Of a DNA stretch of 64,000 bases, positions 1 through 4,793 are shown piece by piece. Below the pieces are notes generated by a model that made no database searches, had not been told where the DNA came from, and saw only the letters and a list, made by a program, of their open reading frames with translations. How positions within the stretch are numbered: the first letter of the stretch is position 1; each line of letters starts with the position of its first letter. Where the stretch lies: NCBI GenBank assembly GCA_000165345.1, contig CM000434.1, positions 384,001 through 448,000 of the forward strand, read 5' to 3'. The translations under genes were made by a program, and so were the position numbers.

Positions 1-140
1 ATTAAATAATTTGTAGGATTATTTTCTTCTGATCGAGTAATTCCATATTCATGGAAGGATTTTATAATGTGTGGCCCTATTCCATATTTGTTTGAGCTTT
101 CAGATAGCTTTATATATAATTTATCTGTTTCCCAATCCAT
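1..140 (-). CDS. Possible 5' end of a gene running off the left edge (ATG on minus strand at 140-138; MDWETDKLYIKLSESSNKYGIGPHIIKSFHEYGITRSEENNPTNYL...)
   Basis: Minus-strand frame is open from the ATG at 140 to position 1. No family recognised. It lies ~100 bp past the SR-beta stop. Confidence 0.25.
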   Translation of the reverse strand, partial: MDWETDKLYIKLSESSNKYGIGPHIIKSFHEYGITRSEENNPTNYL

Positions 141-179
141 TTAGTGAAGCAAAAGACTTCAGAATATTTAGCGCTGCTA

Positions 180-197
180 AAAAAAAAAAAAAAAAAA
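180..197. repeat. A18 homopolymer (T18 on minus strand) in the 3' region downstream of the SR-beta stop
   Basis: Run of 18 A seen directly at 180-197. Confidence 0.9.
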
Positions 198-243
198 TCG
201 GAAATATAAAAATAAATGGAAACTTAAATTTTGCAAAAAAAAT

Positions 244-1077
244 TTATTGGAGAAATGAATCAATTTTAGATTTGAATTCATCATATGAATACTTAATGCT
301 GAGTTTCATAAATTGAAAATTTATATTGTGTAAATTTTCAAAACTAAATGGCATGTCATTGTCTATTAGATCGGATAAATCGTGATCTGAGTTGCAATAT
401 CGGACGTTAAACAATCGCTCTCTGCATTTGTCAAAGTTTTAAATCATTTTATTAGAAACTTACATGCTACGCTCTAATTCATCTTTAATATATGAAATGC
501 TTCGTGAAGTAATTAGATCTGATTTATTGAATAATATTAGCACTCTGTATATCTGTTTTTTTGTTTCGGAATCATTGTTCGAGTAAATTTTAATATTGTG
601 AATTTCTCTAATAATTGAAAACAAAATTTCCGCAGCATCTTTAAAAGACGATTTGTCGTTACTATCAATTACAAAAATTATTGAAACAGAGTTATTGAGA
701 TATTTCAGAATAAAATCATTAATAATTCTTCTGTTCCCAGGGATGTCAACCAAATATCTGTTATCTTTTATTCTTGTCACTCCAGGAACAATAGAAGTTG
801 TTGTTCTTGTTGTTTTATTTTTTTTTACCTAGATGCAATTAAAGATAACTTAGAATAATTAGAAAATTACCTTATAGAATAGTGTGGTCTTTCCCGATCC
901 AGAAGGACCAATTATGAGTGAATAAATATTCTGTGACTTTGTACCTTGGATGCTAAATAAAATAATGCTAATTATATAATTAGCTAAGTAAATTCCAATA
1001 TCAATAAACTTAAGGGAATGGAGTAGAGAGACTCCTATCACTATAGCTATTGTGTAAAATAATAGTTCCCAAAACAT
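244..1077 (-). CDS. SRPRB: Signal recognition particle receptor beta subunit (SR-beta, Arf-like GTPase with N-terminal TM anchor); 3 exons: 871-1077 (or from TTG at 1152), 464-828, 244-421; introns 829-870 and 422-463 (42 nt each)
   Basis: TM segment MFWELLFYTIAIVIGVSLL, then P-loop IIGPSGSGKTTLFYK. Exon 2 gives TTTSIVPG...LVDIPGN (switch/DxxG) and LFNKSDL (NKxD). The apparent stop of ORF 460-780 is a GTAAGT donor. Spliced exon 3 adds ...MPFSFENLHNINFQFMKLSIK (SAK-like G5) and gives ~274 aa, matching SR-beta architecture. Confidence 0.7.
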
Positions 1078-1333
1078 TTTTAATATAATCAAATTTGAAG
1101 ATAGTATCAAATTAAACAGCTTAAAATTGACCGCCTGAAGGTAATAAATCAAACTTTCTTAAAATAGATTGAAAATAATTAATCATCAAATAATGAAATT
1201 GTATGTATATCCACGCTCTAATAGATTTAGCTACATTATAAACATAAATAGTTTAGTTTATTTGAACAGCAATCGAATTTTTGTTCTGGGCTTTGTATTT
1301 GCATTCCTAAATATCAGTCAACTATAGAATTGT

Positions 1334-1370
1334 TCCCGCAATTTGTGTGAATGGACTGTATGCACATGCA
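1334..1370. promoter_or_regulatory. Upstream motifs before the TSP gene: E2F-like TTCCCGC (1334-1340) and TGCACATGCA (1361-1370)
   Basis: Motifs seen ~45-80 bp upstream of the ATG at 1413. E2F-like (TTTGGCGGGAAA) and GCATGCA-type motifs are over-represented upstream of Cryptosporidium and other apicomplexan genes. Confidence 0.35.
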
Positions 1371-1412
1371 ACATAGCTTAAACAGTAAAATTTAGCCATT
1401 ATTTGAATAATA

Positions 1413-4400
1413 ATGTCAGGTGTGTTTAATAAGTTTGTTATTTGCTCCTTTTTGGTAATATTTTTATGCTTGGGGCCAGAGCATGTAGAATTTCATTTGG
1501 TCAACGGAAATAAAGTGGATTTAAATCAAATAGAAGGAAATGGCAGGTTCGAAGTTGAAAATAGAAAACTAATTAAATCAAATAGCCAAATTAATGATGA
1601 TATTAATGCCACTACCAAATATTCTGATTATAATGGCTATAATTTACCTGAAAACTCATCAGTATTTTCTGATCGGGAATTAAAATTCAATGGCTTAAAT
1701 ATCACAAGCTATGAAAACAGACAGTTGTATATTGATTCAAATGGTAGTATATCATCAACAAATAACAACTCGGAAACCAACTCTCTAAATGGTGAAATCC
1801 CAAATAATTCAAGTGAATTTCCAATAAAATCTATTGGAAAAGAACACGTTATTTCAGAGCACATTGACAATCACGTAAATTCACAATATGGTAATAACCA
1901 TGAAAACTTTACAAACATTACAGGAAAAGAAGTTAATTACAACAATTTTAATATAAGCAACAATGAACAAATAAGATTAGACACTTTGCAAGCAATTAAT
2001 AATAGTTTTAATGTTTTGACTGTTGATTTTTCAATGATATATGATGATTTAACCTTTGAACCTAATCTCAAATCAAATGTTGAATATACAATATTTAATA
2101 CATCAAATATAGAAGTGAAGAAAAAAATAGCGAAAGAGATAAAAACTAATAACGATGGCAATTTTGTTGTAAACCTAGAAGATTATTCTTCATATGGATT
2201 TGTAACATGGATTAAACCTGTAGAATCTAACTCTACAAAAGTCGTATTACAATCTAACTCAGGAATAATGCCAAACATGAAAATTAAATTGTTAGAAAAA
2301 CTTTTCCCAAGAAGAAACTTTACTAACGATGAACTGGATGTAATAATTTTGAGCGAATCCCGAAATGAAATAAGGCCATACGGCTATAGGGGAAGCCCTA
2401 TGATACTGACTCAATTTATCGAAAATATTGACTTAAACAACGAGAATGAAGATATATTTTCATTTATAGAAACAATTGAAACATTAAATCAAACAAGCTA
2501 CCTAAAAAACTCTAATAATAGCCTTCAAATAATAGATGATACTGGGAATAATGCTGCTTTTGAATTTTGGAATAACAGTTTTTTATTGCATGATAACCCA
2601 GATATACTTTCAATAAATTGTAATTACTATAATGAATGGTCATCTTGGAGCGCATGTACAAATGAATGTGGATGGGGGATTCAAACAAGAGGAAGAAGAA
2701 TCAATGCAAATTTAATAGATAAGTCTTTTCAATTATCTGACTTTGAAATTAGTGAAATGCTCAGAAAATGTAAGGTGCAAGTTCAAACTCAGGGGTGTAC
2801 ATCCAAAATAGGTTGTTGTGAATACCAATCTCCTAAGGAAAATCTTTGGAAAAACTGTACAGCAACTTGTGATAAACATGGAACAGAGGAACAGACCGTT
2901 GAAATAATATCAAATAAAAAAGGAAAAGTAAAGGATTCTAAATGTGAAAACAAAAAAATATTAAAAAGAAAATGTCTACGTTTATTAGGTGATAAATGCA
3001 AAACTTGCGAAACTACAGAATGGTCTAGATGGTCTAGTTGCAATAACGAAAACGGAGATTTTATTCAAAAGAGAACAAGAGAACTAACCAATGGAAATTG
3101 TGTTTATTCTCAAACTAAGCTAGAGGAAAGGAGAATCTGCGAGAAAATACCTTTGTTTTCAACATCGCCAATGACAAACAATGAAAATAACAGCACCAAA
3201 CAGAAATTTTTAATATCTTCTGAAAATTTAAACGATAAAGAAGCCATTCATGAGGTTAAAGAATGTGAACTTCAGAAATCAGAAATGAAGTACAATTTAA
3301 TTGAAGGAGCATGTGAATGCCCCAATGGCGTTAGTTATTGCGATAATACAGTAATTGAAAATGACAAAACATCTTGGGAATCGCACCTAAAAGAAATTTG
3401 TAATAAAAAAACAGATGCATTTTCTGATAAAAATCTGATGATAATGGCAAAAGGAAAGAGATTATACAACTGCAAAACTAAAAATTGGGAAAAATACACA
3501 ACAACTCCACTTGATTCAGATTGTAAAAATACTTATATACTATGTAAAGTAGAGAGTAATTGCATGGTTTCTAGTTGGTCAGATTGGTCAGGATGTAGTT
3601 CACCATGCAAGTCATCAACAAATGATCTAGATTCCACGACAATATTGAGTACAAGATTCAAAACAAGGAAAGTTATTTCTGGCGAATGCAAGGAACACTC
3701 ACTATTTATGGAAGAAGAATGTTTGGATATAAAGGAGTGTCCTCAAACTAAATATAAATTATCAGTAGATAAGACATCTAAAGAGCTTACCAATTTATTA
3801 TATAGCGAGGATATAAAGAGCCATATAAAAAAAACATTTACTAAATTACAAATGTACAGTGTTCAAGACGATTCAGTTTCAAATATAATGAAAAATTTAT
3901 TTAATAATGTGAGAGATATTATAATTAGAAATAGCGAGTATATTTACGAGCTTAATTTCAATCTTAATGTGTTTGGAGGTGATGGAAATTACCATATTCA
4001 AAGTTATATTAGTTTTATCTTGTCTAAATATAATTTTGATGATAGTGAATTAGTGAAAGATATTATCATTTGGGTAACAATTCCTACAGATGAGAATAAG
4101 GAAGTTTTATATGAAAAGCTATCAAAAAATGACAGACAGATAATTGGGTCAAATAAAGATGAAACCAATAAGTTTCTGGAAAATTTATTTCCTTCAAAAC
4201 TATCATCTATTAAAAACGAAACTGAACAAAACTCTTCTATCCAAACAGGGGATTTATTAACAAAAAACTTTAGCAGTTCAAATAATTCCAACTTGAATAT
4301 AGAGAATTCACAAGCGGTGGGAAACTTTAACTCAGAGAAAGAAAACGAAATATTTTCTAAAATAATTAATCCTGAATTACTATTTAAACTAATTCAAACT

Positions 4401-4793
4401 GCCATATTGAAAAATACAAACTGTAAACCAATAGAAATAAATAAACAAAACTTAAATGAAAGCAATAGTAAAACTAAATGTGTATGCCCTCCTGGATACA
4501 CATTGTGCAGTTCAATTGATTATTATTTTGGAAATCATATTAGTACCTTTGATAAGAGTAGAAAGATAGAAATAAGAACTCCTGAAGGTATTTTTTCAGA
4601 TAATTTTGTTCTTAACCAAGGTGGGATATTCGATCAAGTTTATGAAGAAGATAAAGAAAAATATTGCAATAAACCAGGAGCAAAAGCCATGTGTAGTTCC
4701 AATTCTGAACTGCTAGATACATTAAAACATTTTGGAATAAAGGACTTGTATTCAATGTTTGTTCGCTTTCAAAGTGCTGAAGAATCTAGCTAA
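1413..4793 (+). CDS. Secreted thrombospondin type-1 repeat (TSP1) protein with EGF-like motif, apicomplexan TRAP/TSP-family adhesin-like, 1126 aa
   Basis: N-terminal signal peptide MSGVFNKFVICSFLVIFLCLG. Three WSxWSxC TSP1 cores (WSSWSACTNECGWG ~2640; WSRWSSCNNENG ~3020; SSWSDWSGCSSPC ~3570). C-terminal CVCPPGYTLC EGF-like motif (~4480). No C-terminal TM is evident. Confidence 0.85.
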   Translation: MSGVFNKFVICSFLVIFLCLGPEHVEFHLVNGNKVDLNQIEGNGRFEVENRKLIKSNSQINDDINATTKYSDYNGYNLPENSSVFSDRELKFNGLNITSYENRQLYIDSNGSISSTNNNSETNSLNGEIPNNSSEFPIKSIGKEHVISEHIDNHVNSQYGNNHENFTNITGKEVNYNNFNISNNEQIRLDTLQAINNSFNVLTVDFSMIYDDLTFEPNLKSNVEYTIFNTSNIEVKKKIAKEIKTNNDGNFVVNLEDYSSYGFVTWIKPVESNSTKVVLQSNSGIMPNMKIKLLEKLFPRRNFTNDELDVIILSESRNEIRPYGYRGSPMILTQFIENIDLNNENEDIFSFIETIETLNQTSYLKNSNNSLQIIDDTGNNAAFEFWNNSFLLHDNPDILSINCNYYNEWSSWSACTNECGWGIQTRGRRINANLIDKSFQLSDFEISEMLRKCKVQVQTQGCTSKIGCCEYQSPKENLWKNCTATCDKHGTEEQTVEIISNKKGKVKDSKCENKKILKRKCLRLLGDKCKTCETTEWSRWSSCNNENGDFIQKRTRELTNGNCVYSQTKLEERRICEKIPLFSTSPMTNNENNSTKQKFLISSENLNDKEAIHEVKECELQKSEMKYNLIEGACECPNGVSYCDNTVIENDKTSWESHLKEICNKKTDAFSDKNLMIMAKGKRLYNCKTKNWEKYTTTPLDSDCKNTYILCKVESNCMVSSWSDWSGCSSPCKSSTNDLDSTTILSTRFKTRKVISGECKEHSLFMEEECLDIKECPQTKYKLSVDKTSKELTNLLYSEDIKSHIKKTFTKLQMYSVQDDSVSNIMKNLFNNVRDIIIRNSEYIYELNFNLNVFGGDGNYHIQSYISFILSKYNFDDSELVKDIIIWVTIPTDENKEVLYEKLSKNDRQIIGSNKDETNKFLENLFPSKLSSIKNETEQNSSIQTGDLLTKNFSSSNNSNLNIENSQAVGNFNSEKENEIFSKIINPELLFKLIQTAILKNTNCKPIEINKQNLNESNSKTKCVCPPGYTLCSSIDYYFGNHISTFDKSRKIEIRTPEGIFSDNFVLNQGGIFDQVYEEDKEKYCNKPGAKAMCSSNSELLDTLKHFGIKDLYSMFVRFQSAEESS

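What the first reader, a model, noticed from the sequence alone, without database searches (positions are those of the whole stretch)
244..1152. SR-beta apparent stop codon is a splice donor, and the real C-terminus is 178 bp further downstream
ORF 460-780 stops 17 aa after the NKxD motif, which is too short for a GTPase because there is no G5/SAK motif. The stop TAA overlaps ATGTAAGT. Splicing a 42-nt intron (422-463) appends a 59-aa exon containing ...FSFENL...FQFMKLSIK, a SAK-like G5, and gives a ~274 aa SR-beta-sized protein. A second 42-nt intron (829-870) joins the P-loop exon to the switch-region exon (TTTSIVPG).
Basis: partly seen in the sequence, partly recalled or inferred. Interest (0 to 1): 0.55.

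Follow-up and report, generated by a model that had tools for sequence, protein, structure and literature searches.

The report
Known three-exon Cryptosporidium SR-beta gene
The apparent stop codon really is the start of a tiny intron, and the spliced gene encodes a normal signal-recognition-particle receptor beta subunit, but exactly this three-exon model is already in the public Cryptosporidium parvum annotation, so the finding is correct and ordinary.

Summary
The window is Cryptosporidium parvum: bases 1-4077 are identical to GenBank CP141123.1. On the minus strand, 1077..244 holds a three-exon gene:
- exon 1, 1077-871
- intron 1, 870-829 (42 nt, GT..AG, phase 0)
- exon 2, 828-464
- intron 2, 463-422 (42 nt, GTAAGT..CAG, phase 2)
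- exon 3, 421-244

The "stop" TAA at 462-460 lies inside the GTAAGT donor. Any phase-2 GTAA donor gives an in-frame TAA when read unspliced.

The spliced product is 249 aa and 100% identical to QOY41045.1 (CPATCC_002687) and WRK32764.1, [quoted passage not shown]. The annotated exon structure of that record reproduces both introns exactly.

Five other Cryptosporidium species keep both introns at the same positions. Intron 2 is 42-52 nt long across them, mostly not a multiple of 3. C. bovis keeps the intron-2 donor.

Exon 3 raises the Pfam SRPRB score from 68.7 to 76.7 bits. It aligns with the C-terminus of mammalian SR-beta ("FQFMKLSIK" opposite "VEFLECSAK") and forms the last strand and helix of the predicted GTPase fold.

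The protein is 249 aa, not about 274, because the TTG at 1152 is not a start.

By-product: the public models for C. meleagridis UKMEL1, chipmunk genotype I and C. bovis are truncated or mis-ended at this donor.

Verdict: already known, low interest.

The parts
871..1077 (-). Exon 1 (207 nt, 69 codons). Start ATG at 1077-1075. It encodes a hydrophobic N-terminal membrane anchor (residues 1 to about 45) and the P-loop GPSGSGKT, and ends ...TTLFYK in phase 0.
   Evidence: Kyte-Doolittle means of 2.04 (residues 1-19) and 1.93 (residues 25-43). The AF2 model has a helix at 2-46. Matches the annotated model.
829..870 (-). Intron 1, 42 nt, GTAATT...TCTAG, phase 0. Read unspliced, it gives VIF* after 3 codons.
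   Evidence: Identical to the intron in the annotated CP141123.1 gene. An intron sits at the same position in C. meleagridis (42 nt), chipmunk genotype I (43), C. ubiquitum (43), C. felis (43) and C. ryanae (49).
464..828 (-). Exon 2 (365 nt). It encodes switch I (TTTS), G3 (DIPG) and G4 (NKSD), and ends with AT of a split Ile codon (phase 2).
422..463 (-). Intron 2, 42 nt, GTAAGT...TGCAG, phase 2. The apparent stop TAA (462-460) is bases 2-4 of the donor.
   Evidence: A GTAAGT donor sits at the same codon phase in all seven Cryptosporidium species examined. Intron lengths are 42, 43, 45, 43, 50 and 52 nt in six of them, and C. bovis has the same donor.
244..421 (-). Exon 3 (178 nt: 1 nt completing the Ile codon, 58 codons, and stop TAA at 246-244). 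It encodes the end of helix alpha-4, the PFSFENL loop, the last beta strand (NFQFMKL), the G5-equivalent LSIK and the C-terminal helix.
1078..1152 (-). Not coding. It is 5' UTR or promoter sequence shared with the divergent TSP1-domain gene.
   Evidence: There is no ATG between the upstream stop and 1077. The annotated gene starts at the position equivalent to 1077. Six of the seven orthologue models start at the homologous Met; the C. bovis public model does not.

Best explanation
Window 1077..244 (minus strand) is the Cryptosporidium parvum gene for the beta subunit of the signal recognition particle receptor (SR-beta). SR-beta is an Arf-like small GTPase anchored in the ER membrane by an N-terminal hydrophobic segment. 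The gene has three exons separated by two 42-nt spliceosomal GT-AG introns.

The second intron is in phase 2 and begins GTAAGT. In unspliced DNA the frame therefore reads NNG TAA and seems to stop right after helix alpha-4. Splicing joins AT|A into Ile191 and adds 58 more residues. These supply the last beta strand, the G5-equivalent loop (LSIK, aligned with CSAK of mammalian SR-beta) and the C-terminal helix, giving a complete 249-aa GTPase.

What is shown and what is inferred:
- Shown here: the sequence anatomy, identity to the public annotated product, positional conservation of both introns in other species, and homology and predicted fold of the exon-3 peptide.
- Taken from the literature: RNA-seq support for the annotated introns.
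- Inferred from family membership: GTP binding and pairing with SR-alpha at the ER.
For: 1. Anatomy: GT..AG boundaries, a consensus GTAAGT donor, frame restoration, and 750 nt of CDS with no internal stop.
2. The spliced product is 100% identical over 249/249 aa to QOY41045.1 (CPATCC_002687), WRK32764.1 and UniRef100_A0A7S7LF97, [quoted passage not shown]. The gene DNA is identical to CP141123.1, and the annotated exon structure gives the same two introns.
3. Orthologous introns sit at identical positions in C. meleagridis, chipmunk genotype I, C. ubiquitum, C. felis and C. ryanae. Intron 1 is 42-49 nt and intron 2 is 43-52 nt. Indels inside introns are not multiples of 3, whereas exon indels are 0, 3, 9 or 12 nt, with a single exception of 14 alignment-gap columns in exon 2 of the most distant pair, C. 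parvum vs C. ryanae. C. bovis has the same AT|GTAAGT donor and a conserved exon 3.
4. Pfam SRPRB scores 76.7 bits (cut-off 25) over profile positions 6-157 for the spliced form, against 68.7 bits over 6-136 for the truncated form.
5. The best PDB sequence hits are SR-beta. The family profile aligns to mammalian SR-beta through its last residues at E = 1e-64.
6. The AF2 model (pLDDT 78.6) puts strand 224-231 and helix 237-248 in exon 3. The top Foldseek hits are SR-beta 6frk_v, 2fh5_B and 1nrj_B, with TM 0.76-0.82 normalised on the target.
7. An exon-3-only profile hits the collinear C-terminal columns of a non-Cryptosporidium SR-beta profile, P = 0.0016.
8. Baptista et al. 2022 (PMC8744675) state that the introns of the IOWA-ATCC (CPATCC_) annotation are 100% supported by RNA-seq.
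Against: - RNA support rests on a general statement in the annotation paper, not on a read-level check of this gene.
- The G5 equivalence (LSIK against SAK) rests on alignment and a predicted fold, and several metazoan SR-beta sequences in the alignment lack an obvious SAK.
- The exon-3-only profile hit is modest (hhalign probability 16%, P = 0.0016). It is convincing mainly because it lands at the expected collinear position.
Confidence: 0.97

Rival explanations
1. The gene really ends at TAA 462-460. It would give a 191-aa GTPase without G5, and the downstream 56-59-codon open frame would be chance or a separate small gene.
For: Public models for C. meleagridis UKMEL1 (POM82884.1, 191 aa) and chipmunk genotype I (KAH8584489.1, 190 aa) end exactly there.
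Against: Those models come from annotations that missed a conserved GTAAGT donor. A newer C. meleagridis record (KAK9171990.1) is 249 aa. Exon 3 is conserved at protein level in seven species, but only in the splice-defined frame. It aligns to SR-beta C-termini. A truncated protein would lack the last strand and helix of the GTPase fold. An open frame this long has p of about 0.004 by chance.
Confidence: 0.01
2. The introns are real, but intron 2 is retained in a regulated way. Retention gives an immediate stop, so it would yield a truncated inactive isoform or an NMD target that tunes SR-beta dosage.
For: Retention of a phase-2 GTAA intron necessarily terminates translation. Nothing examined here excludes some retention.
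Against: No evidence for it was found. The annotation paper lists only three putative alternatively spliced genes for the whole genome, and its CPATCC numbering did not let me tell whether this gene is one of them. The in-frame TAA is an automatic by-product of a consensus donor in phase 2, not a sign of design.
Confidence: 0.03
3. One reading: the same introns, but translation starts at the TTG at 1152, giving about 274 aa.
For: The frame is open from 1152.
Against: TTG is not a normal eukaryotic start, and the ORF listing uses bacterial start rules. The first ATG is at 1077. The public model and the orthologues in the other species, except the C. bovis public model, start at the homologous Met.
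Confidence: 0.01

Closest known systems
C. parvum SRP receptor beta subunit, QOY41045.1 (CPATCC_002687, IOWA-ATCC annotation) and WRK32764.1 (CP141123.1)
   Same: It is the same gene. The DNA is identical over the gene and over window 1-4077, the protein is identical over 249/249 aa, and the two 42-nt introns are the same.
   Different: Nothing.
Mammalian and yeast SR-beta (PDB 2fh5_B, 6frk_v, 7nfx_v, 1nrj_B)
   Same: An N-terminal membrane anchor followed by an Arf-like GTPase domain. It has G1 GxxxSGKT, G3 DxPG, G4 NKxD, a long alpha-4 helix, a conserved F-x-F loop and a V/F-x-F-x-E-x-S strand before G5. These are the top sequence and fold matches.
   Different: - Only about 23-27% identity.
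- The residue after DxPG is Asn (DIPGN) instead of His (DLPGH).
- G5 reads LSIK rather than CSAK.
- An insertion of about 11 residues (roughly 148-160, low pLDDT) precedes beta-5.
- The loop between alpha-4 and the FxF motif is shorter.
Arf and Arl small GTPases (Pfam PF00025)
   Same: The same GTPase fold and a weaker Pfam hit (45.9 bits).
   Different: The Arf match stops at profile position 141/174 and does not cover exon 3. There is no N-terminal myristoylation glycine, and a membrane anchor stands in its place. SRPRB scores 30 bits higher.

Membership tests
SR-beta (Pfam SRPRB, PF09439) | Scores above the curated Pfam gathering threshold, and higher than the sister family Arf | tested here: met
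   SRPRB 76.7 bits (cut-off 25) against Arf 45.9 bits.
SR-beta (Pfam SRPRB, PF09439) | N-terminal hydrophobic membrane anchor preceding the GTPase domain | tested here: met
   Kyte-Doolittle 19-residue means of 2.04 (residues 1-19) and 1.93 (residues 25-43). The AF2 model has a helix at 2-46. Tested by hydropathy only, with no dedicated TM predictor.
SR-beta (Pfam SRPRB, PF09439) | GTPase motifs G1 (GxxxxGKT), G3 (DxPG) and G4 (NKxD) | tested here: met
   GPSGSGKT at 57-64, DIPG at 97-100 and NKSD at 170-173. G57, S61-T64, D97-G100, N170, K171 and D173 are invariant in alignment A1.
SR-beta (Pfam SRPRB, PF09439) | G5 (SAK-type) loop after the last beta strand | tested here: inconclusive
   LSIK (231-234) aligns with CSAK of mammalian SR-beta and follows predicted strand 224-231. 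The Ser is invariant in seven Cryptosporidium species. However, the motif is degenerate across SR-beta, and no contact with the guanine base was examined.
SR-beta (Pfam SRPRB, PF09439) | Solved SR-beta structures are the closest folds | tested here: met
   Foldseek ranks 1-4 are 6frk_v, 2fh5_B, 1nrj_B and 7obq_v, with target-normalised TM 0.73-0.82.
SR-beta (Pfam SRPRB, PF09439) | GTP-dependent binding of the SRX domain of SR-alpha at the ER membrane | not testable with these tools
   Needs biochemistry or a co-fold with the C. parvum SR-alpha, which is not in this window as far as examined.
Spliceosomal GT-AG intron | GT...AG boundaries with a consensus-like donor | tested here: met
   Intron 1 is GTAATT...CTAG and intron 2 is GTAAGT...GCAG.
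Spliceosomal GT-AG intron | Removal restores a single open frame collinear with homologues | tested here: met
   The 750-nt CDS has no stop. The alignment across both junctions is gap-free against metazoan SR-beta.
Spliceosomal GT-AG intron | Position conserved in orthologues while length and sequence drift out of frame | tested here: met
   Positions are the same in six species. Lengths are 42/42, 42/43, 43/45, 43/43, 43/50 and 49/52 nt (intron 1/intron 2). C. bovis has the same donor.
Spliceosomal GT-AG intron | Branch-point motif upstream of the acceptor | tested here: inconclusive
   Candidates were seen by eye. TTGAC, TTAAC or TTAAT lies about 9-17 nt before the acceptor of intron 2 in most species, and TTCTAAT lies at intron positions 7-13 in both C. 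parvum introns. Which one is used cannot be told from sequence.
Spliceosomal GT-AG intron | Spliced junctions observed in RNA | not testable with these tools
   No read data were available here. PMC8744675 states that all introns of the CPATCC_ annotation, which contains this model, are supported by RNA-seq.

The most novel reading that the evidence does not exclude
Retention of intron 2 might be used by the parasite as an on/off switch for SR-beta. Retention puts a stop codon immediately after the exon, and the result would be a G5-less, presumably non-functional protein or an unstable mRNA. Nothing here supports this. It is simply not excluded without read-level RNA data.
Probability: 0.03. 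Interest if true: 0.3.

Novelty: already known. Interest (0 to 1): 0.08.

Why it matters
It matters little for biology. The gene, its two introns and its product are already in GenBank, UniProt and the CPATCC_ annotation of C. parvum.

The practical value is for curation. A phase-2 GTAAGT donor always mimics a stop codon, and at this locus it has produced truncated or mis-ended public protein models in at least three other Cryptosporidium genomes:
- C. meleagridis UKMEL1, POM82884.1
- Cryptosporidium sp. chipmunk genotype I, KAH8584489.1 / XP_067202201.1
- the C. bovis FG379_001035 model

These could be corrected from the evidence gathered here. The case also shows that the first-stage reader can infer tiny introns correctly from raw sequence.

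Tried and rejected
1. Bacterial-style ORF calls split the gene into three ORFs and suggest a TTG start at 1152. I rejected that start because the first ATG is at 1077 and the orthologues agree (apart from the C. bovis public model).
2. Alternative donor/acceptor pairs: 53 GT..AG combinations near the false stop were enumerated. The others that reach the exon-3 frame either use non-consensus donors (GTAGCA, GTGCTA, GTTTTC) or delete conserved parts of exon 2, including NKSD. All were rejected.
3. Plus-strand ORFs 464-586 and 653-832 are antisense to conserved coding sequence and were treated as chance.
4. I looked for an older C. parvum (cgd-numbered) model of this gene. None appeared among the protein hits or cluster members, and a literature search found nothing. 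Whether the 2004 annotation had it right is left open.
5. The genome-contig collection holds only bacteria and archaea, so it could not supply further apicomplexan loci and was not scanned.
6. The identity hit had already settled the question.

Full report
**What is in the sequence**

The region is AT-rich (about 28% G+C) and the gene lies on the minus strand. Its parts are:

- The first ATG of the open frame is at 1077-1075. From there 207 nt encode a hydrophobic N-terminus and the P-loop ...IIGPSGSGKTTLFYK.
- Next comes GTAATT...TCTAG (870-829, 42 nt).
- At 828 the frame continues VKKNKTTRTTTSIVPGVTRIKDNRYLVDIPGN...LFNKSDLITSRSISYIKDELERS, up to AT at 465-464.
- Then comes GTAAGT...TGCAG (463-422, 42 nt).
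- From 421 the frame reads A|GAG CGA..., giving IERLFNVRYCNSDHDLSDLIDNDMPFSFENLHNINFQFMKLSIKYSYDEFKSKIDSFLQ and the stop TAA at 246-244.

The intron is in phase 2, so unspliced reading necessarily gives NNG TAA. A consensus GTAA donor in phase 2 always looks like a stop codon. Joining the three exons gives 750 nt and 249 aa with no internal stop.

All coordinates and both 42-nt introns are as stated. Two details are wrong.

- The product is 249 aa, not about 274. There is no ATG between the upstream stop and 1077, and the correctly started orthologue sequences begin at the homologous Met.
- 178 bp is the length of exon 3. The true stop lies 216 nt beyond the false one.

Chance is an unlikely explanation. 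An open frame of 58 or more codons occurs with p of about 0.004 in shuffles of this region. Of 53 GT..AG pairs near the false stop, only 463/422 combines a consensus donor with retention of all of exon 2.

**Identity of the locus**

The spliced protein is 100% identical over its full length to a database protein named [quoted passage not shown]. Its accessions are QOY41045.1 (CPATCC_002687), WRK32764.1 and UniRef100_A0A7S7LF97.

The gene is recorded on CP141123.1 (assembly GCA_035232765.1) as an 834-nt gene with a 249-aa product. The window gene is identical to it, and window 1-4077 matches that record with no mismatch. A brute-force search for the exon structure that turns the annotated gene into the annotated protein returns introns at offsets 207-249 and 614-656, exactly window 870-829 and 463-422.

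[quoted passage not shown] I could not examine reads for this gene myself.

**Comparative evidence for splicing**

I fetched orthologous loci from six further Cryptosporidium genomes.

| Species | Intron 1 (nt) | Intron 2 (nt) | Source |
|---|---|---|---|
| C. parvum | 42 | 42 | annotated model |
| C. ubiquitum | 43 | 43 | annotated model |
| C. felis | 43 | 50 | annotated model |
| C. ryanae | 49 | 52 | annotated model |
| C. meleagridis UKMEL1 | 42 | 43 | intron 1 annotated; intron 2 inferred downstream of the annotated stop |
| chipmunk genotype I | 43 | 45 | intron 1 annotated; intron 2 inferred downstream of the annotated stop |

- In C. ubiquitum, C. felis and C. ryanae, the annotated models have introns at the same two codon positions.
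- In C. meleagridis UKMEL1 and chipmunk genotype I, the public models stop at the same TAA (191 and 190 aa). The DNA there reads ATGTAAGT, and a 43- or 45-nt GT..AG intron leads into a conserved 59-residue exon 3.
- C. bovis has the same AT|GTAAGT donor and a conserved exon 3. Its 172-aa public model is wrong at both ends.
- Between C. parvum and C. meleagridis the exons are 93-94% identical with no gaps, yet intron 2 differs by a 1-nt indel. Exon-length differences between the species are multiples of 3.

This pattern is that of real introns flanked by coding exons.

**Does exon 3 belong to SR-beta?**

- **Pfam.** SRPRB scores 76.7 bits over profile positions 6-157 for the spliced protein, against 68.7 bits over 6-136 without exon 3. 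Arf scores 45.9 bits.
- **Pairwise alignment.** Alignment with mammalian SR-beta runs straight across the exon 2/3 junction, with DELERSIERLFNVRY opposite QQLEKELNTLRVTRS.
- **Multiple alignment.** In an alignment of Cryptosporidium and metazoan SR-beta, exon-3 residues F216 and F228 are invariant and F218 nearly so.
- **Profile against PDB.** A profile of that alignment matches mammalian SR-beta to its last residues at E = 1e-64. The strand NFQFMKLS lies opposite KVEFLECS, and so LSIK lies opposite the G5 motif CSAK.
- **Exon 3 alone.** A profile made only of exon-3 peptides from seven species hits the collinear C-terminal columns (201-230 of 242) of a profile of non-Cryptosporidium SR-beta, P = 0.0016. 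This is modest, but it lands in the right place.
- **Predicted structure.** The AlphaFold2 model (mean pLDDT 78.6) has an N-terminal helix at 2-46 followed by a GTPase fold. Its last strand (224-231) and helix (237-248) are encoded by exon 3. Its best PDB matches are SR-beta 6frk_v, 2fh5_B and 1nrj_B, with target-normalised TM 0.76-0.82.

I rate it inconclusive as a motif, because G5 is degenerate among SR-beta sequences.

**Mechanism**

Shown: a three-exon gene whose spliced product has every sequence and fold hallmark of SR-beta. Inferred from the established biology of the family: the protein sits in the ER membrane through its N-terminal anchor, binds GTP, and in that state holds the SRX domain of SR-alpha, forming the receptor that accepts SRP-ribosome complexes. 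A protein ending at the false stop would lack the last strand, the G5 loop and the C-terminal helix, so it could hardly fold or bind guanine nucleotide.

**Surroundings**

- Upstream and divergent, at 1413-4793 (+), lies a 1126-aa protein with thrombospondin type-1 repeats. The 335-nt spacer between the two start codons must hold both promoters.
- Downstream on the minus strand, the next gene (367 aa in the public record) starts at ATG 140-138, only 103 nt after the SR-beta stop. A T18 run on the minus strand (181-198) lies between them.
- This order is conserved: the downstream neighbour follows SR-beta in all six orthologous loci, and the TSP1-domain gene lies upstream in the five whose fetched flank shows a called gene.

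**Verdict**

The result is already known. Its only added value is to flag truncated models in three related genomes. Interest is low.

Noticed in passing
L007:1501-2118 (C. meleagridis UKMEL1, POM82884.1); L003:1501-2116 (chipmunk genotype I, KAH8584489.1 / XP_067202201.1): The public protein models of the SR-beta orthologue end at the pseudo-stop inside the GTAAGT donor (191 and 190 aa). A 43- or 45-nt intron and a conserved 59-residue exon 3 follow in the DNA. These models appear truncated and could be corrected.
   Followed up: yes
L006:1501-2243 (C. bovis, FG379_001035): The 172-aa public model looks wrong at both ends. It starts at an upstream ATG (1501) with a spurious first intron, instead of the conserved MFLSLFFYL... 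Met at about 1553, and it ends ...ELERNIC instead of continuing through a GTAAGT...TTTAG intron into ...KHFNFETLTSLDLKFLETSLVSPDENISEMIEHVLSS*.
   Followed up: partly
window 789-775 (-), residues 97-101 of the product: The G3 motif reads DIPGN in C. parvum and most Cryptosporidium species, and DIPGD in C. bovis. Mammalian and yeast SR-beta have DxPGH, and Arf has a catalytic Gln at this position. Other SR-beta homologues in the alignment have H, Q or S. This might bear on how GTP hydrolysis is triggered.
   Followed up: no
window about 634-596 (-), residues about 148-160: Cryptosporidium SR-beta carries an insertion of about 11 residues (IKIYSNNDSETKK) between helix alpha-3 and strand beta-5 that is absent from metazoan SR-beta. 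It is the only segment of the model with pLDDT below 50 (residues 151-159).
   Followed up: no
window 181-198: An A18 run on the plus strand (T18 on the gene strand) lies in the 103-nt spacer between the SR-beta stop (244) and the ATG of the next minus-strand gene (140-138). The spacer must hold both a 3' end and a promoter.
   Followed up: no
window 1413-4793 (+): A divergently transcribed single-exon ORF of 1126 aa with several thrombospondin type-1 repeats (WSxWSxC motifs; precomputed Pfam TSP_1 and TSP1_spondin hits, weak or faint). It resembles an apicomplexan TRAP/TSP-family adhesin. It is conserved next to SR-beta in five of the six other species examined; the fetched C. ubiquitum flank shows no called gene upstream.
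   Followed up: partly
window 870-858 and 463-451 (-): Both introns of the gene begin GTAAnTTTCTAAT. The TTCTAAT element resembles a branch-point consensus but lies only 7-13 nt from the donor. A second candidate (TTGAC or TTAAT) lies about 9-13 nt from the acceptor. Which one serves as the branch point in these 42-nt introns is unclear.
   Followed up: no
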